In this document: positions 40,018 to 64,000 of the stretch, piece after piece
Layout of the letters: each line of letters opens with the position of its first letter
How positions within the stretch are numbered: the stretch's first letter is position 1
DNA from: a phage
Sequence record: PZ386977.1
DNA length: 64,000 nt
Reading direction: 5' to 3' (one strand)
Made by a program: the position numbers and the translations under genes
The notes under the pieces: model-generated
The model's input: the letters and a program-made list of their open reading frames with translations, nothing else
Told to the model about the DNA's origin: nothing
The model's database searches: none

Positions 40018-41118
40018 TTACGCTGTGAAGATTTTATCCCACATCGCAACAACTGCATCTCGGTTATACTTCTTCCATACTGCTTCAGCACGTTTAACTC
40101 TAGCTTCGTATGTGTCAGTGAATTCTAATACAGCTTTTGTGTAAAGCGCAACTACTTCTTTCTTAGGAGTAGAGGAATCAATTTCTACACGCACAGTATC
40201 TGGGTCATATTCGAATGTCGCGTGCGGATAATCCTTAAAAACTAACTGAATCACAGGGACACCTTTAGAGATGGCTTCAATAGAACTATTCTCTACTGTA
40301 CCTGTGTCAGGACACGTATTGATAAGTGCTTTAGCTGTTTTAAGACGTTCCATGATTTCACTGTGTGGAGCATCAATAATAACAGGATATTTAGCTGGCG
40401 GTGCCCATTTACTAGGACAGTATCCTGCACCGTTTTCGCCTAGTGCTTTAATCGCTTCAAGAGCAACATCAGTACGACGCATCTTAGTGTCATAACGTTG
40501 AGCACTAATAATCAGATCAGTCGCTGGAAGAACTTCAGGTTTCTCATTCAAACAAATAACCGGATAATCTTCGGCTTCAAACAACGGATTTGCTCGCCAA
40601 TAATCATAATCAATTTTGTCAGTCAGACCTGAAGTCATATAACAATATTTGCGTTCAAATTCACGGAAGGCTTTAGTAGGAGCATAACTCTTGCCACCAT
40701 TCTTATGAATTTGAATAGTCTGGTCCCAAATTTGAACAATGCCACGAGATACCGGTTCAAATGGTGTTGCCATAAAATTCTTATGAACTTTAGAGAGACC
40801 TGCGTCTTTAATTGCCTGAACGGTTAGTTTGGTCGGTTCCATTGTAACAACGAAATCGTACTCATTGATGCCGGCTAGTTCAACAATCTTACGAGCCATA
40901 GTATAACTCATACCTAGACTGAATTTAGTCAGACGACCAACAGGATGATGATTAACCTTCCAGTCACCAAACGTGTCATTATCAAAGCCGATATAATCAA
41001 TATCAGCACCGATGGACACAAGATATTTCAACACATTTAAATGTACCGCTTCAAGACCACCTTGTACACGTTCTGGGTTAAATGGGACTGCGCGAGATGG
41101 GATAAACATAACTTTCAT
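40018..41118 (-). CDS. putative GT-B glycosyltransferase
   Basis: 366 aa; C-terminal ...GTVENSSIEAISKGVPVI... resembles the nucleotide-sugar-binding E-x-E region of GT-B enzymes; not an obvious T4 alpha- or beta-gt homologue. Confidence 0.5.
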   Translation of the reverse strand: MKVMFIPSRAVPFNPERVQGGLEAVHLNVLKYLVSIGADIDYIGFDNDTFGDWKVNHHPVGRLTKFSLGMSYTMARKIVELAGINEYDFVVTMEPTKLTVQAIKDAGLSKVHKNFMATPFEPVSRGIVQIWDQTIQIHKNGGKSYAPTKAFREFERKYCYMTSGLTDKIDYDYWRANPLFEAEDYPVICLNEKPEVLPATDLIISAQRYDTKMRRTDVALEAIKALGENGAGYCPSKWAPPAKYPVIIDAPHSEIMERLKTAKALINTCPDTGTVENSSIEAISKGVPVIQLVFKDYPHATFEYDPDTVRVEIDSSTPKKEVVALYTKAVLEFTDTYEARVKRAEAVWKKYNRDAVVAMWDKIFTA

Positions 41119-52736: not shown

Positions 52737-53258
52737 TTAGTAACCATTATCCTGACGTTCAAAGTTGTGTTGGTTTTTCAAGTAGTAAAGTTTAAAGATT
52801 TCTTCAGCAGAAAGACCAAGACCTTGGAACATATTTAGAACGAAATGCAGAATATCAATCATTTCAAATTTAATTTCAAGCTGGTCTTCAGGAGACAGTT
52901 CATCGATACGACGATTTCGATATTCAGCATGTTGTGCTTTCCATGGCTTCCATACACTGCTGGCGGCTTTTTCACCATTGCTCATACCACCAAGTGAAGT
53001 CAGCAGTTCACGGAATTCATCATCAATATAATCTTTCTGATTACGCAGCCAATCAACAACATCACCAGCAGTAGCCAATTCATCAGGATGTTTGTTATGT
53101 TCAGGCTTGTCATTTGCCAGACGAACCTGTAAAGATTTCTGCATATCAAGCATTACCTGAAGTGGGTCTTTATCTTCGTGAATCAGAGCATTAAAATAAG
53201 CTTCTTCTGCTTTATCAACACCAGAAATAAGTTGTGAACATTCGTTAAAGTGTGCCAT
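52737..53258 (-). CDS. 56: gp56 dCTP/dCDP pyrophosphatase
   Basis: 173 aa from ATG 53256-53258 (MAHFNEC...); MazG-like EIxDILHFVLNMF; track ORF starts at upstream TTG. Confidence 0.85.
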   Translation of the reverse strand: MAHFNECSQLISGVDKAEEAYFNALIHEDKDPLQVMLDMQKSLQVRLANDKPEHNKHPDELATAGDVVDWLRNQKDYIDDEFRELLTSLGGMSNGEKAASSVWKPWKAQHAEYRNRRIDELSPEDQLEIKFEMIDILHFVLNMFQGLGLSAEEIFKLYYLKNQHNFERQDNGY

Positions 53259-59726: not shown

Positions 59727-60089
59727 TTAAAAGAATTTAAATTTTTTCTTGGTCCGTTCATTAAAAGCTTGTTGTACTTGCATTGTAACACATTTTTCAA
59801 CATGTGGTGCAAGTTCTGCTTTTCTGTCTTGGTCAAGAACTGCAAAGTCCATTACGATTTTACCATCAACCCAGTCTAGTTTTGTAATATAGACTATATG
59901 ATGGGAACCGTCTTCAAGTGTAATCAGAATCTCTTGAATGACATTTTCCATTGCTGAACGGACAATTTTAAGAGATTCATTAAACACTCGTTCTTTGCGA
60001 ATGTCCTCCCCTTCCAAAGAAGGGGATTCATCAACGATTTCTAGATTTAAATCATCGAGATTATTCATCGAAATCTTCCATTTCGTCAA
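59727..60089 (-). CDS. 40: gp40-like head vertex assembly protein (by position between uvsX and 41)
   Basis: 120-aa ORF; true start may be the internal MNNLDDL. Confidence 0.55.
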   Translation of the reverse strand: MTKWKISMNNLDDLNLEIVDESPSLEGEDIRKERVFNESLKIVRSAMENVIQEILITLEDGSHHIVYITKLDWVDGKIVMDFAVLDQDRKAELAPHVEKCVTMQVQQAFNERTKKKFKFF

Positions 60090-61233
60090 GGTCGTTTTCT
60101 ATATCTGCTGCAGACGGAGCATCAGAAGCTTTAACCGGAACTTTAGTTGTTGCTTTGCAATTAATAAGGTCGTTAACAGCGTCATCAACTTCTTTAATAG
60201 AAGAGATAGCACCTAGTTTATATTTAGTTTCAATTGCATCTCGGAAAGGTTTGTGTTTAAACAACGGTCCCCAGAATTCTACACAATCAGTAGCTTTAGC
60301 ACGCCACGATTTCTCTTCACGAATCATTTCACCTGTTTCTTCGTCAAGGAATTCACGAGCATACCAACCAGCTTTAGGCTTAACAACAAATCCAATTTCA
60401 GTTGCCATTTCTAACAAGCCACTGAATGGGTCGATACCGCCATCAAAATTAACCGTGATCGGGAAAGTAGATTTCTCTTTAACTGTACGAGATTTTTCTG
60501 CTTTCAACGTGAAGTCATAACCGGTCAATTCTGTACCTTCTTTAACCTGACGTTTAGAGATAAAGAATACAGTGTTAGCAGAGTAAAGAATACCTGTACC
60601 ACCACCCATAATCTCTTTAGGATATAGTCCGCCTATTTCCATTGCTGTATGGTTGATTGCAACACACGGAATATCTTTAATAGTCAGATAAGGAGTCACA
60701 ATACGGAACAGAGATTTAAGTGCCTTAGCACGAGACATATCACCTACGACTTTCTCGTTCAATGCATCTTCGGTTTCTTTCTTAGATGCAGTATTACCGA
60801 TTGAATCGATAAAGATAATAACTTTATCACCGCGTTCAATAGCGTCAAGCTGATTAGTCATATCAACTTTAAGTTGTTCGACAGATTGAATCGGAGTATG
60901 AACTACACGGTCTAAATCGACACCCATTGAACGAAAATAAGATTCTGAAGCACCGAATTCCGAGTCATAAAACAAACAGATTGCATCTTTATATTTCTTC
61001 ATATACGCTGCAACCATAGTCAGTCCAAACAATGTTTTAAAATGTTTAGAAGGTGCAGCAAAAATAGTCAAGCCTGATTGCAATCCTGCATTCAGAGCAC
61101 CACCTAGTGCGATATTCAACATCGGAATACGAGTAGGGACTTCATCACGATTATTAAACAGCTTAGACTTAGTCAAGTCTGCAGTCATTTTAGAAGTAGA
61201 AGCTTTAATCAGACGAGATTTTAAATCAGACAT
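60061..61233 (-). CDS. uvsX: UvsX RecA-like recombinase
   Basis: 390 aa; Walker A context and RecA core; acidic C-terminus DLDEMEDFDE. Confidence 0.95.
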   Translation of the reverse strand: MSDLKSRLIKASTSKMTADLTKSKLFNNRDEVPTRIPMLNIALGGALNAGLQSGLTIFAAPSKHFKTLFGLTMVAAYMKKYKDAICLFYDSEFGASESYFRSMGVDLDRVVHTPIQSVEQLKVDMTNQLDAIERGDKVIIFIDSIGNTASKKETEDALNEKVVGDMSRAKALKSLFRIVTPYLTIKDIPCVAINHTAMEIGGLYPKEIMGGGTGILYSANTVFFISKRQVKEGTELTGYDFTLKAEKSRTVKEKSTFPITVNFDGGIDPFSGLLEMATEIGFVVKPKAGWYAREFLDEETGEMIREEKSWRAKATDCVEFWGPLFKHKPFRDAIETKYKLGAISSIKEVDDAVNDLINCKATTKVPVKASDAPSAADIENDLDEMEDFDE

Positions 61234-61331: not shown

Positions 61332-61880
61332 TTAACGAGCCCATTTGATGATTTCTGTAATCAAACCATTACGTTCGCTTGCATTAAATCCTATAACTTT
61401 GTTAGCACCATCATGATTAAGTAATTGATACGTTTGGATTTTGTTATGAATTGCAAACTCTTCAAAATGTGAAATGACTGTATTAAAACCGAATGAAGAC
61501 AAAGTAATAAGGTCGTCTTCAAAACTTTCAGTCATTTCGTTACGTGTTAAAATAATTGTGAACACATCATGGTTTTGGCAAAGACGAACATAATCCTGCT
61601 CATAAACATCAAGAACAGAGTCCGCATCTTGTCGAATACGTCCATAAACCCAGTTACTAATATATCCACGGTCTAACAGATAAATCTTAGTAGGGTCTAA
61701 ATAATTCAACATCGTTTCGAAACAGCCAACTTCATTTCTAGACTTAACATCGAAACGTCCATCAACTGTTCGTTTAGGGAAATCAATCTTTACATATCTT
61801 TCACTAATTTCCATTATGTCATTAATGAAAGTTGTTTTACCAGCATTATCCGGGCCATCTACTAAAATAATTTTAGCCAT
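61332..61880 (-). CDS. P-loop nucleotide/nucleoside kinase-like protein (TMK/dNK fold)
   Basis: 182 aa; Walker A VDGPDNAGKTT and LLDRGYISNWVYG resembling the thymidylate-kinase DRY...S..AY motif; GAGGA SD. Confidence 0.55.
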   Translation of the reverse strand: MAKIILVDGPDNAGKTTFINDIMEISERYVKIDFPKRTVDGRFDVKSRNEVGCFETMLNYLDPTKIYLLDRGYISNWVYGRIRQDADSVLDVYEQDYVRLCQNHDVFTIILTRNEMTESFEDDLITLSSFGFNTVISHFEEFAIHNKIQTYQLLNHDGANKVIGFNASERNGLITEIIKWAR

Positions 61881-61881
61881 T

Positions 61882-62781
61882 TTATTCCTCGATTACGACA
61901 TCTTCGTATTTAGGTATATTATACGGTGAAGAAATTAAAGCATTAAAGTAGATGAACTCACCAAGACCTGGATGGAATACTTCTTCAGGATTTTCGAAAT
62001 ATTGAATCTTCGGACGTCCTTTAAGAATTTGATAGTACTCAGTTTTAGTTGGATTAAAAATTCGAATCAGCGCTTCTTCAGGATACTTATTTCTGTCGAA
62101 ACTATTATTTGGATCAGTTATATAAAGCGGTTGACCTAATTGAATTGCGCATTCAACCACTTGTTCAAAACGATAGCATGGGTCACTAATTCGAAATGGA
62201 TGAAAAATACCATCTAGATGAATAGGAGCCAAATCACCTACAAGACGCTGCATGACGGAAGGACATATAACTTTCTGCGTTACGATAATCTTATTACCAT
62301 CTGCACCTGCGTTAACCAGCACTTCTTTTTGACGTTCATTCAACACAGTAGTTTGAAGTGAACGATTAACAGACAACATGTCGGTTTTTAAGAATTCATC
62401 AATATAAAAACGTGGTTTATTAGGGTCTGCAGTGATATTGAAATTGAATTCTACGTCAAAAGCGCCATCATATCCAGTGATATCTGTGATTAGAAAATCA
62501 CAATCATAATAAGCAATTAATGAATCAACCACAAATTCATTTTCAGACCAGAAATATTTACGAGTGTTATACGCGTTATCTTTATACCATAATGGAACAA
62601 ACTTAAATTCTGGGAAAAGACGTTCACATTCTTTAATATCAGATGCATTACGTGGATATGTAATCACATCACCTGGATTAGCACGGTGCAAATGAAGTTG
62701 GAAGTTGCCATCCTTAAGGATGGCATACTGTCCAGTTTCATAAGACCGCATACTCAAGATTGGTACGCGGAAAATAGCCAT
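61882..62781 (-). CDS. hypothetical protein (299 aa) in the slot where T4 has beta-glucosyltransferase
   Basis: ORF track; start overlaps next gene stop; no recognised motif. Confidence 0.55.
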   Translation of the reverse strand: MAIFRVPILSMRSYETGQYAILKDGNFQLHLHRANPGDVITYPRNASDIKECERLFPEFKFVPLWYKDNAYNTRKYFWSENEFVVDSLIAYYDCDFLITDITGYDGAFDVEFNFNITADPNKPRFYIDEFLKTDMLSVNRSLQTTVLNERQKEVLVNAGADGNKIIVTQKVICPSVMQRLVGDLAPIHLDGIFHPFRISDPCYRFEQVVECAIQLGQPLYITDPNNSFDRNKYPEEALIRIFNPTKTEYYQILKGRPKIQYFENPEEVFHPGLGEFIYFNALISSPYNIPKYEDVVIEE

Positions 62782-63497
62782 TAGTCAAGGAATCCTTTAA
62801 CATAATCAAAATCACGTTCAAACACATGGGCACTTACCATGGTATGAGTATAATCACCAACTTCTACACCGCATTCGTTAGCGATATAATGAAGTAATTT
62901 TCCTTGGAGATAAAAATCCAACTGCATAACAACAGCACAGTTCTGAGAACGCATATGACAGTGGGTATAAAGCTTACCATCACGAATATAATAAGTTACT
63001 GAGTCAGTACATGGATATTCAAGTGTTTCGTCCGAATCAAGCAAAGCCTGATCAGAACTTTCTAGAATTTGGAACACAACTCTTCGAGAGTTAGGTTTTT
63101 CTTTAAGTTCTTTTAGAAGAGTTGGTAATTGGGCCGCAATGCGAGGACCATAGAAAGTGTTGAAGTTCGCCGGCAAAACATCTGATTTTGGTTTAGAAAT
63201 AAATTTAGCGACATTAGGATATGCCTTAAACGCTTCTTCTGCGTTGGTACCACCAGAAATCATAAACTTCCAGAAGTCTTCGGCATATTCATAAGAGATG
63301 CGGTTAATACGTGGGTCGGTCATTTTGAATGATGACGGATTGTCAACAACTACTGTCATGGACCCAATTTCATTACAACGTCCAATACGAGAATCAGTTA
63401 CGAATTCCGGGTTTTCTAAAATTTCACGATTGACTGCTTTAAATGCGGTTTGAAAATCTGCGGCTTTGATATATTTCATTGTGTTATGTTTTCCCAT
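62781..63497 (-). CDS. 42: thymidylate-synthase-superfamily enzyme at the gene 42 position (dCMP hydroxymethylase-like)
   Basis: 238 aa; PNSRR phosphate-binding motif and catalytic-Cys region YPCTDSVTYYIRDGK...MRSQN; GAGG SD. Confidence 0.65.
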   Translation of the reverse strand: MGKHNTMKYIKAADFQTAFKAVNREILENPEFVTDSRIGRCNEIGSMTVVVDNPSSFKMTDPRINRISYEYAEDFWKFMISGGTNAEEAFKAYPNVAKFISKPKSDVLPANFNTFYGPRIAAQLPTLLKELKEKPNSRRVVFQILESSDQALLDSDETLEYPCTDSVTYYIRDGKLYTHCHMRSQNCAVVMQLDFYLQGKLLHYIANECGVEVGDYTHTMVSAHVFERDFDYVKGFLD

Positions 63498-63539
63498 GTT
63501 TACCTCAATACAATTTATTATATACTCGATTCGTAAAGC

Positions 63540-63779
63540 TTATTTGAATTTCTTGGCAGTGTTGATATACCGTAAAGCTTCAGCATCGATACTTCCAAGA
63601 ACACTATGAAGAAATGCATCAGCGTAGTATTCCAATTGAACAGGTTCTTTAATCACTTTAGCCGCTTTGGTTTCAAACAGGCCCATAAGGGCCTTTTTAA
63701 GAATTTGTTCGTTAGTGTTCAGTTTAATAGTCAAAATCTCTTCATTAAGTTGATGATTAAAAGTTTTTCTAGAAATCAT
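63540..63779 (-). CDS. hypothetical protein (79 aa)
   Basis: ORF track. Confidence 0.5.
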   Translation of the reverse strand: MISRKTFNHQLNEEILTIKLNTNEQILKKALMGLFETKAAKVIKEPVQLEYYADAFLHSVLGSIDAEALRYINTAKKFK

Positions 63780-63970
63780 TCCGGGTACCTCAGAGCGTCA
63801 TCAGAGTTAGTTATATCAATAATAGATATAGAGTTTTCTGCTAACCCGTTTTTAGATAATTGACGTTTATAATATCTTTCACAATATGTACACGTTGATC
63901 CGCAGATTTCATTAGCACAATCAAAATCTGGATGTCTGAACCACCTTTTTTCTAAAAAGCCATCTAACAA
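63776..63970 (-). CDS. small Cys-rich protein (64 aa), possible zinc binding
   Basis: CANEICGSTCTYCERYY cluster of five Cys. Confidence 0.45.
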   Translation of the reverse strand: MLDGFLEKRWFRHPDFDCANEICGSTCTYCERYYKRQLSKNGLAENSISIIDITNSDDALRYPE

Positions 63971-64000
63971 AGAGGTTTCAATATTTACTGTATGTGAAAA

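What the first reader, a model, noticed from the sequence alone, without database searches (positions are those of the whole stretch)
61332..63497. Kinase-like gene, 299-aa unknown gene and a TS-family enzyme sit where T4 carries beta-glucosyltransferase
In T4 the order is uvsX, bgt, 42. Here uvsX is followed by a TMK-like P-loop kinase (Walker A plus DRGYxSxxVY), a 299-aa protein with no recognisable motif, and a thymidylate-synthase-superfamily enzyme whose catalytic-Cys region differs from what I recall for T4 gp42. A dedicated nucleotide kinase next to a dNMP-modifying TS-family enzyme is the classic signature of a modified-nucleotide biosynthesis module. With the glycosyltransferase candidate at 40018-41118, this suggests a DNA hypermodification pathway distinct from T4 glucosyl-hmC. 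RB69-type phages are known to carry arabinosyl-hmC instead of glucosyl-hmC, so this may be that system or a relative; the roles of the kinase and the 299-aa protein would be undescribed as far as I know.
Basis: partly seen in the sequence, partly recalled or inferred. Interest (0 to 1): 0.8.

Follow-up and report, generated by a model that had tools for sequence, protein, structure and literature searches.

The report
RB69-type 5-hydroxycytosine arabinosylation gene core
These three genes are the core of the pathway by which RB69-like phages replace cytosine with sugar-coated 5-hydroxycytosine; the pathway was published in 2025-2026, so the finding is real but mostly known, and only the kinase's job remains untested.

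Summary
Three tightly packed minus-strand genes lie between uvsX and the gene-42 position: 61332-61880 (182 aa), 61882-62781 (299 aa) and 62781-63497 (238 aa). The window is a Mosigvirus (RB69-like). The proteins are 99%, about 99% and 98% identical to RB69 gp45, gp46:47 and gp48.

- **238-aa enzyme.** It is not a dCMP hydroxymethylase. It carries the E/C/N/D signature (E. coli ThyA L143E, C146, D169N, N177D). It is 97% identical to solved structure 9IQC. Its 98%-identical RB69 orthologue is the flavin-dependent 5-hydroxy-dCMP synthase shown experimentally by Lee et al. 2026.
- **299-aa protein.** It models confidently (pLDDT 94.8) as a compact GT-B glycosyltransferase. It is the predicted first arabinosyltransferase.
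- **182-aa protein.** It is a thymidylate-kinase-fold enzyme, not a T4 gp1 orthologue. No paper I could read tested its role.

"Arabosyl-hmC" is superseded, because the base is 5-hydroxycytosine. The 299-aa role is no longer undescribed.

New here: the TS-GT-kinase cassette is present in 44 of 44 complete related viral loci. The kinase and the GT occur in nearly the same phage genomes (344 versus 349 of 50,697).

Two leads remain open: whether the first glycosylation happens on the nucleotide, and whether the neighbouring U32-family gene is an oxygen-independent hydroxylase.

The parts
62781..63497 (-). Thymidylate-synthase-superfamily 5-hydroxy-dCMP synthase (RB69 gp48 orthologue), 238 aa. 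Key residues: E160 (=ThyA L143), C163 (=C146), N186 (=D169), D194 (=N177).
   Evidence: ORF. PF00303 at 1.9e-15. 98% identical to RB69 gp48. 97% identical to PDB 9IQC/9IR2/9IQU. Only 25% identical to T4 gp42. Signature read from alignments A2 and tsall. Activity of RB69 gp48 shown in PMC13326640.
61882..62781 (-). Compact GT-B (GT4-like) glycosyltransferase, 299 aa. It is the RB69 gp46:47 orthologue and the predicted first (base-proximal, alpha) arabinosyltransferase.
61332..61880 (-). Thymidylate-kinase-fold P-loop nucleotide kinase, 182 aa (RB69 gp45 orthologue). Substrate untested.
63517..63539 (-). T4 middle (MotA-type) promoter-like site GCTT-N13-TATAAT just upstream of the TS-family gene, followed by a GAGG ribosome-binding site.
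   Evidence: Pattern search gives 9 matches in the window versus 0.88 expected. Sequence read. The same site is annotated as a middle promoter in phage SA79RD.
61918..61941 (-). Second middle-promoter-like site, inside the 3' end of the glycosyltransferase gene and upstream of the kinase gene.
   Evidence: Pattern search. Annotated as a promoter at the same place in SA79RD.
40018..41118 (-). Second DNA glycosyltransferase (RB69 gp3 orthologue, proposed beta-arabinosyltransferase 2), lying between rIIA and topoisomerase gene 39.
   Evidence: 99% identical to RB69 gp3. PDB 9IQZ/9IR0 'phage HY126 glycosyltransferase' at E = 3e-247. Role proposed in PMC13326640.
52737..53258 (-). dCTP pyrophosphatase (gene 56 / RB69 gp28 homologue). 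It supplies dCMP and removes dCTP.
   Evidence: 98% identical to the annotated dCTP pyrophosphatase of SA79RD. Listed as the pathway dCTPase in PMC13326640 Table 1.
63540..63779 (-). 79-aa protein of unknown function (RB69 ORF049c homologue) between the U32-family gene and the TS-family gene.
   Evidence: 94% identical to RB69 ORF049c. No Pfam match.
63776..64000 (-). Last 74 codons of a peptidase-U32-family protein (RB69 gp50 homologue), cut by the window end. Contains a CX4CX3CX2C motif. The rest of the cluster (phosphatase, bifunctional kinase/UDP-sugar pyrophosphorylase, arabinose-5-P isomerase, DNA polymerase) lies beyond the window.
   Evidence: Translation. 96% identical to the RB69 gp50 C-terminus. 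The full-length homologue matches PF01136 at 7.3e-11. Cluster layout.

Best explanation
The three genes are the conserved core of the RB69-type cytosine hypermodification pathway. The window comes from a Mosigvirus.

1. The phage dCTPase (window 52737-53258) makes dCMP.
2. The 238-aa thymidylate-synthase homologue hydroxylates dCMP at C5, using a flavin and O2, to give 5-hydroxy-dCMP. This is shown for the 98%-identical RB69 gp48.
3. Nucleotide kinases raise it to the triphosphate and the phage polymerase incorporates it in place of dC. RB69's gp1-type kinase is shown to accept 5-hydroxy-dCMP. I infer that the 182-aa thymidylate-kinase-like enzyme is a dedicated kinase for the modified dCMP.
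4. The 299-aa GT-B enzyme transfers the first arabinofuranose from UDP-Araf onto the 5-hydroxyl. This step is inferred and not demonstrated anywhere I could read.
5. The gp3 homologue at 40018-41118 adds the second arabinose.

The product is DNA in which every C is mono- or di-arabinosyl-5-hydroxycytosine, which blocks restriction and CRISPR nucleases. The genes appear to be expressed from T4-type middle promoters as a tightly coupled unit.
For: **Identity to RB69 and Mosigvirus.**

**Hydroxylase signature.** The window enzyme has L143E, C146, D169N and N177D. The same signature appears in 46 of 47 TS homologues that sit next to a relative of the 299-aa protein. The enzyme is 97% identical to solved structure 9IQC.

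**Literature.** RB69 gp48 plus gp159 yields 5hodC in DNA, with 18O2 incorporation and bound FMN. D169N is diagnostic. gp46:47 and gp3 are the proposed arabinosyltransferases, and gp45 is listed as 'nucleotide kinase' (PMC13326640). The Mosigvirus NP chemistry agrees (PMC13390438).

**Folds.** GT-B for the 299-aa protein. Thymidylate-kinase fold for the kinase.

**Linkage.**
- The order TS-GT-kinase, or kinase-TS-GT, is present in 44 of 44 untruncated viral loci whose GT is at least 33% identical.
- The kinase occurs in 344 phage records and the GT in 349, out of 50,697, with the same genus breakdown.
- The trio persists in metagenomic loci L033-L046, where no arabinose-activation genes are seen within 8 kb. 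It also persists in RL38J1, whose base-proximal sugar is galactose. This ties the kinase to the base rather than to the sugar.

**Expression.** Overlapping stop/start codons and middle-promoter matches.
Against: No assay of the 299-aa protein or of the kinase was found. Lee et al. report no activity of single purified DLP3 transferases on 5hoC-DNA. They state they cannot tell whether the first sugar is added to the mononucleotide or to DNA.

The gp1-type kinase already phosphorylates 5hodCMP, so a second 5hodCMP kinase would look redundant.

The window kinase itself is below every curated family threshold: no PF02223 hit, and TIGR00041 scores 16 bits against a cut-off of 83. It is the fastest-evolving gene of the cluster, at 37-73% identity where UvsX keeps 84-90%.

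The 299-aa family lacks a conserved EX7E motif, because E267 is K or T in most members.

I could not read He et al. 2026 or Mahler et al. 2025, which may assign these roles differently.
Confidence: 0.88

Rival explanations
1. Nucleotide-level first glycosylation. The 299-aa transferase arabinosylates 5-hydroxy-dCMP (or dCDP/dCTP) before replication. The thymidylate-kinase-like enzyme exists because the bulky arabinosyl-5-hydroxy-dCMP is not accepted by the gp1-type kinase. The polymerase then incorporates an already glycosylated nucleotide, and only the second sugar is added on DNA.
For: The kinase is inherited together with the GT although these phages already own a gp1 kinase that handles 5hodCMP. 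Single GTs were inactive on 5hoC-DNA, and the authors leave the substrate level open. The kinase accompanies the GT in L052/L053, where no TS homologue is in view. The kinase is of the thymidylate-kinase type, a family that acts on a C5-substituted pyrimidine dNMP.
Confidence: 0.15
2. The kinase is an ordinary phage dTMP/dNMP salvage kinase that merely happens to sit here and has nothing to do with the modification.
For: Thymidylate-kinase fold. Public annotation as 'thymidylate kinase'. It has its own promoter-like site. It evolves fast.
Against: It is absent from T4 at this position. It is found in essentially the same 344-349 phage genomes as the GT out of 50,697. It always lies inside the modification cluster even when its position in the cluster changes. 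It is far below dTMP-kinase equivalog thresholds.
Confidence: 0.08
3. One reading: the module makes arabinosyl-hydroxymethylcytosine. The TS-family enzyme is a variant dCMP hydroxymethylase and the 299-aa protein is possibly a diverged beta-glucosyltransferase.
For: The original RB69 report named ara-hmC (PMC6024577). The genes sit at the positions of T4 42 and beta-gt. Some GenBank records call the enzyme deoxycytidylate 5-hydroxymethyltransferase.
Against: The structure was re-determined as an ether to 5-hydroxycytosine. The window enzyme has N at the ThyA D169 position, whereas T4 gp42 keeps D. It is 98% identical to the enzyme shown to make 5hodCMP. There is no sequence similarity to beta-GT.
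Confidence: 0.02

Closest known systems
RB69 gp45 / gp46:47 / gp48 and the HY126 'Afh' cluster (arabinosyl-5-hydroxycytosine pathway; Lee et al. NAR 2026, He et al. Nat Chem Biol 2026, Mahler et al. Cell Host Microbe 2025)
   Same: Orthologous genes at 98-99% identity, in the same order and with the same flanks. The TS homologue and the gp3-type GT have near-identical solved structures (9IQC, 9IQZ).
   Different: Nothing substantive. In this window the 299-aa gene is intact, whereas the RB69 reference record splits it with one extra T.
T4 gene 42 dCMP hydroxymethylase plus beta-glucosyltransferase (glucosyl-hmC)
   Same: Same genomic slot between uvsX and DNA polymerase. Same logic: a TS-family enzyme acting on dCMP and a GT-B sugar transferase. 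N177D and an acidic residue at L143 are shared.
   Different: 25% identity. D169N. The chemistry is flavin/O2 hydroxylation instead of folate one-carbon transfer. The sugar is arabinofuranose on an ether rather than glucose on a hydroxymethyl. The GT is unrelated in sequence to beta-GT. The extra thymidylate-kinase-like gene has no T4 counterpart.
Thymidylate kinases (PF02223) and Bacillus SPbeta YorR (PDB 2axp/3kb2)
   Same: Fold, P-loop and the D-R motif followed by S-x-x-V-Y.
   Different: The window protein itself passes no curated TMK threshold. hhalign to E. coli Tmk aligns only the P-loop. The P-loop has DN rather than the DR of type I TMKs, and the lid is short. The substrate is unknown.
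GT4-type retaining GT-B glycosyltransferases (sucrose-phosphate synthase 6kih, BshA, PimA) and T4 alpha-glucosyltransferase
   Same: Two-Rossmann GT-B architecture and a conserved C-terminal acidic residue after an H-P-G turn. A retaining mechanism would fit the alpha-linked first arabinose.
   Different: Only 299 aa versus 340-400. 8-13% identity. No Pfam Glycos_transf_1 match. The EX7E motif is not conserved.

Membership tests
[quoted passage not shown] | Thymidylate synthase fold or domain | tested here: met
   PF00303 at 1.9e-15, 57 bits against a cut-off of 24.3. 97% identical to solved structure 9IQC.
[quoted passage not shown] | Asn at the position of E. coli ThyA Asp169 (D169N, the published diagnostic), together with Cys146, N177D and L143E | tested here: met
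   N186, C163, D194 and E160 in alignment A2. The same signature is found in 46 of 47 GT-linked homologues, whereas T4 gp42 keeps D. The criterion comes from PMC13326640.
[quoted passage not shown] | Makes 5-hydroxy-dCMP from dCMP with FMN and O2 | not testable with these tools
   Shown for the 98%-identical RB69 gp48. Not assayed for this protein.
T4 gp42-type dCMP hydroxymethylase | Close sequence relationship to gp42, with Asp retained at ThyA position 169 | tested here: not met
   25% identity. N186 instead of D.
GT-B fold glycosyltransferase / phage arabinosyltransferase 1 (RB69 gp46:47, DLP3 gp79) | Two Rossmann-like domains of the GT-B fold | tested here: met
GT-B fold glycosyltransferase / phage arabinosyltransferase 1 (RB69 gp46:47, DLP3 gp79) | Orthology to RB69 gp46:47 | tested here: met
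   The DNA alignment is 99% identical, with a single 1-nt indel that explains the split RB69 annotation. BFVD models of ORF046c and ORF047c superpose on the two halves.
GT-B fold glycosyltransferase / phage arabinosyltransferase 1 (RB69 gp46:47, DLP3 gp79) | Sequence membership of a curated GT family (e.g. Pfam Glycos_transf_1) and the GT4 EX7E motif | tested here: not met
   No Pfam or NCBIfam hit. E267 is not conserved and only E/D275 is.
GT-B fold glycosyltransferase / phage arabinosyltransferase 1 (RB69 gp46:47, DLP3 gp79) | Transfers arabinofuranose from UDP-Araf to the 5-hydroxyl of 5hoC | not testable with these tools
   Proposed only. Single DLP3 GTs were inactive on 5hoC-DNA in vitro.
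T4 beta-glucosyltransferase | Detectable sequence or closest-fold relationship to beta-GT | tested here: not met
Thymidylate kinase family (PF02223) | P-loop NMP-kinase fold closest to thymidylate kinases, with P-loop Lys and the D-R motif | tested here: met
Thymidylate kinase family (PF02223) | Passes the curated family threshold | tested here: not met
   No PF02223 hit for the window protein. TIGR00041 scores 16.3 bits against 83.25. hhalign to E. coli Tmk aligns only 25 columns.
Thymidylate kinase family (PF02223) | Phosphorylates dTMP | not testable with these tools
   No assay found in the readable literature.
T4 gp1 deoxynucleoside monophosphate kinase | Closest structural or sequence relative is gp1 | tested here: not met

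The most novel reading that the evidence does not exclude
The thymidylate-kinase-like enzyme and the 299-aa transferase work together on free nucleotides. 5-hydroxy-dCMP is arabinosylated before replication. The dedicated kinase phosphorylates the glycosylated dNMP, which the gp1-type kinase cannot take. The phage polymerase then incorporates a ready-made sugar-bearing nucleotide. This would be the first pre-replicative DNA glycosylation pathway. The evidence does not exclude it: the published authors leave the substrate level of the first sugar open, and they saw no activity of single transferases on 5hoC-DNA.
Probability: 0.15. Interest if true: 0.75.

Novelty: already known. Interest (0 to 1): 0.3.

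Why it matters
Arabinosyl-5-hydroxycytosine DNA protects a large group of T4-like phages from restriction enzymes, DNA glycosylases and CRISPR. The group counts about 350 sequenced isolates infecting E. coli, Klebsiella, Acinetobacter and others, many of them phage-therapy candidates. Recognising the module from sequence predicts a phage's DNA chemistry and its defence-evasion profile. The D169N signature plus the linked GT and kinase are enough to recognise it.

The pathway itself is published, so the value here is confirmation plus three sharpened open questions:
- What does the always-present second kinase do?
- Is the first sugar added to a nucleotide or to DNA?
- How is the hydroxylation achieved without oxygen in the gut?

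Tried and rejected
1. **Sequence searches of the 299-aa protein** against Pfam, NCBIfam and PDB found nothing. Only structure prediction identified it.
2. **phmmer of the kinase against PDB** gave only P-loop noise. hhalign of the kinase profile to E. coli Tmk aligned only the P-loop. I therefore did not map base-contact residues. My tentative reading rests on the human enzyme's sequence recalled from memory, so it is not used as evidence. That reading was that the Arg which reads thymine O4 in human TMPK is replaced by an invariant Leu58.
3. **Net charge as a clue to DNA versus nucleotide substrate** was inconclusive. The 299-aa GT has pI 5.0, T4 beta-GT 9.05 and T4 alpha-GT 6.1.
4. **The EX7E motif** at 267-275 of the window protein is not conserved in the family, so it was dropped as evidence for GT4 membership.
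5. **The sigma-70 promoter and terminator scan** was uninformative: 11 found versus 13 expected, and no terminators. The T4 middle-promoter pattern was informative instead.
6. **He et al. 2026 and Mahler et al. 2025** could not be retrieved by DOI or PMID. Searches for 5ara-hmC and the Afh gene names led nowhere.
7. **The phage U32 protein compared with E. coli TrhP/RlhA.** BLASTP was not significant, and the crude alignment supports only one of the two essential Cys. Orthology is not claimed.
Full report
**Observation.** The 182-aa ORF is at 61332-61880, the 299-aa ORF at 61882-62781 and the 238-aa ORF at 62781-63497. Downstream lie uvsX (60061-61233), gene 40 and gene 41. The stop of the 238-aa gene overlaps the ATG of the 299-aa gene (TAATG). 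One base separates the 299-aa stop from the kinase ATG. Two matches to the T4 middle-promoter pattern GCTT-N13-15-TATAAT lie at 63517-63539, upstream of the first gene, and at 61918-61941, upstream of the kinase. The pattern occurs 9 times in the window against 0.88 expected. The same sites are annotated as promoters in the near-identical phage SA79RD. In T4 the corresponding slot holds uvsX - segA - beta-gt - 42, so the positional statement is right apart from segA.

**Whose genome.** The 2.4-kb region is 98-99% identical to about 150 Mosigvirus genomes, including LF82-1, JS09, Shf125875 and p000v. The kinase is 99% identical to RB69 gp45 and the 238-aa protein 98% identical to RB69 gp48. The 299-aa gene equals RB69 ORF046 plus ORF047, except that the RB69 record has one extra T that splits the frame. 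The candidate transferase at 40018-41118 is 99% identical to RB69 gp3. It matches the solved 'phage HY126 glycosyltransferase' 9IQZ at E = 3e-247. The window ends inside the RB69 gp50 homologue. The sugar-activation genes and the DNA polymerase therefore lie just beyond position 64000. The dCTPase of the pathway is in the window at 52737-53258.

**What is already published.**
- Lee et al. (NAR 2026, PMC13326640) show that RB69 DNA carries mono- and di-arabinofuranosyl 5-HYDROXYcytosine, joined by an ether at C5. It does not carry the arabinosyl-hydroxymethylcytosine proposed in 2018 (PMC6024577).
- RB69 gp48 expressed with the gp1-type kinase gp159 puts 5-hydroxy-dC into E. coli DNA. The oxygen comes from 18O2, the enzyme binds FMN, and Asn at ThyA position 169 is diagnostic of such enzymes.
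- gp46:47 is proposed as the first transferase and gp3 as the second. gp45 appears only in a table, as 'nucleotide kinase'.
- The authors say they cannot tell whether the first sugar goes onto the mononucleotide or onto DNA. Single purified DLP3 transferases did nothing on 5hoC-DNA.
- An independent study of a Mosigvirus agrees on the chemistry (PMC13390438).
- He et al. 2026 and Mahler et al. 2025 are cited for further enzymology, but the library does not hold them.

**The TS-family enzyme.** It matches Pfam Thymidylat_synt. It is only 25% identical to T4 gp42. It is 97% identical to PDB 9IQC/9IR2/9IQU. Aligned with E. coli ThyA and T4 gp42, it has E160 at L143, C163 at C146, N186 at D169 and D194 at N177, whereas gp42 keeps Asp at 169. 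It therefore meets the published signature of a 5-hydroxy-dCMP synthase and fails membership of the hydroxymethylase branch.

T4 beta-GT is not in the top 60. BLASTP to beta-GT is non-significant. Invariant residues include S10-M-R-S13, R197, K246, H270-P-G272 and an acidic residue at 275. The apparent EX7E motif is not conserved. A retaining GT4-like mechanism would fit the alpha-linked base-proximal arabinose. That link is an inference.

**Linkage, new here.** I fetched 51 viral loci that encode relatives of the 299-aa protein.
- All 44 untruncated loci whose transferase is at least 33% identical also carry the kinase. Nearly all also hold a TS homologue in the sequence available.
- The order is TS-GT-kinase or, in two sublineages, kinase-(U32)-TS-GT.
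- 46 of 47 linked TS homologues have the E/C/N/D signature. The exception has Ser at position 169.
- Among 50,697 phage records the kinase occurs in 344 and the transferase in 349, with matching genus counts.
- In metagenomic loci L033-L046 the trio stands without recognisable arabinose-activation genes nearby. Lee's Table 1 shows the same trio in RL38J1, whose base-proximal sugar is galactose.

The kinase is therefore tied to the modified base, not to the sugar. It is also the fastest-evolving gene of the cluster.

**Mechanism and uncertainty.** Shown for orthologues: dCMP is converted to 5ho-dCMP by the TS homologue, 5ho-dCMP is phosphorylated by the gp1-type kinase, and later sugars are added on DNA. 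Inferred: the 299-aa GT-B adds the first arabinose, and the TMK-like enzyme phosphorylates a modified dCMP. A second kinase looks redundant for 5ho-dCMP, and the first transferase has not been seen to act on DNA. I therefore keep nucleotide-level first glycosylation as a live minority reading (about 0.15).

**Side observations.**
- The gene upstream is the RB69 gp50 homologue, and only its last 74 codons are in the window. It is a peptidase-U32-family protein (PF01136). The literature implicates U32 proteins in O2-independent, prephenate-dependent C5-hydroxylation of pyrimidines: RlhA for ho5C in rRNA and TrhP for ho5U in tRNA (PMC6599085; PMC5727448).
- The phage protein is present in 222 phage genomes, all at least 80% identical. 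It is absent from all 57 Acinetobacter phages that carry the kinase and GT.
- It is as conserved as UvsX and more conserved than the DNA polymerase.
- In two unrelated metagenomic phages (L052, L053) a kinase-GT-U32 trio sits next to a DnaE-type polymerase, with no TS homologue in the 14-17 kb held.
- Similarity to TrhP/RlhA is too weak to claim orthology. An oxygen-independent route to 5-hydroxycytosine is a testable idea that I did not find stated in the papers I could read.
- In locus L035 an NAD(P)H:FMN reductase gene lies two ORFs upstream of the TS homologue. This fits the flavin chemistry.

**Verdict.** The module is real and functional-looking, and it is the RB69 system. The residual novelty is confined to the untested kinase, the substrate level of the first transferase, and the U32 lead.

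Noticed in passing
window 63776-64000 (-), continuing beyond the window end; full-length homologue L001:11579-12739 (-): The gene next to the module is a peptidase-U32-family protein (PF01136, 7.3e-11) with a C-terminal CX4CX3CX2C motif. U32 proteins (RlhA, TrhP) are implicated in O2-independent C5-hydroxylation of pyrimidines. The phage protein is at least 80% identical across 222 phage genomes, as conserved as UvsX. It is absent from all 57 Acinetobacter (strict aerobe) phages that carry the kinase and GT. This suggests a possible oxygen-independent route to 5-hydroxycytosine; Lee et al. call the protein only a 'sugar or heterocycle reductase'. Similarity to TrhP/RlhA is too weak to claim orthology.
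   Followed up: partly
L053:4268-6862 and L052:7457-10048 (metagenomic viral contigs IMGVR_UViG_3300045988_171426 and IMGVR_UViG_3300035520_000516): Two non-T4-like phages (DnaE-type polymerase, RecA) carry a TMK-like kinase, a GT1-like transferase and a U32 protein in a row next to the polymerase. No TS homologue is present in the 13.7 or 16.8 kb held. The U32 protein is 47-50% identical to the Mosigvirus one, while the transferase is only 26-27% identical.
   Followed up: partly
L035:6216-6743 (+): In a metagenomic viral locus, a Flavodoxin_2/FMN_red NAD(P)H:FMN reductase gene (PF02525, 2.3e-18) lies two ORFs upstream of the D169N-type TS - GT - kinase cassette. This is consistent with a supply of reduced flavin to the hydroxylase.
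   Followed up: no
L002:4598-5498 (RB69 reference NC_004928, ORF046c/ORF047c) versus window 61882-62781: The RB69 reference record has one extra T (alignment column 545) that splits the 299-aa gene into two ORFs. The window and about 340 other phage genomes have it intact. This agrees with the published remark that the split is a sequencing error.
   Followed up: yes
viral loci L008-L010, L014-L018, L023, L028-L029: In two sublineages the kinase is a divergent version (37-42% identical). It sits upstream of the TS gene (HAD - kinase - [U32] - TS - GT - uvsX) instead of downstream of the GT. The L014-L018/L023 group also shows no U32 and no SIS isomerase within 8 kb.
   Followed up: no
relatives P0179, P0180, P0185, P0187, P0189 of the kinase (314-357 aa): Some remote relatives of the kinase are about twice as long. 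Two of the 60 sampled relatives also match the HhH-GPD base-excision glycosylase domain, which suggests kinase-glycosylase fusions.
   Followed up: no
window 11167-63539, nine sites: The T4 middle-promoter pattern GCTT-N13-15-TATAAT occurs 9 times in the window against 0.88 expected. Eight of the nine are on the minus strand, in keeping with MotA-dependent expression of this early/middle region.
   Followed up: no
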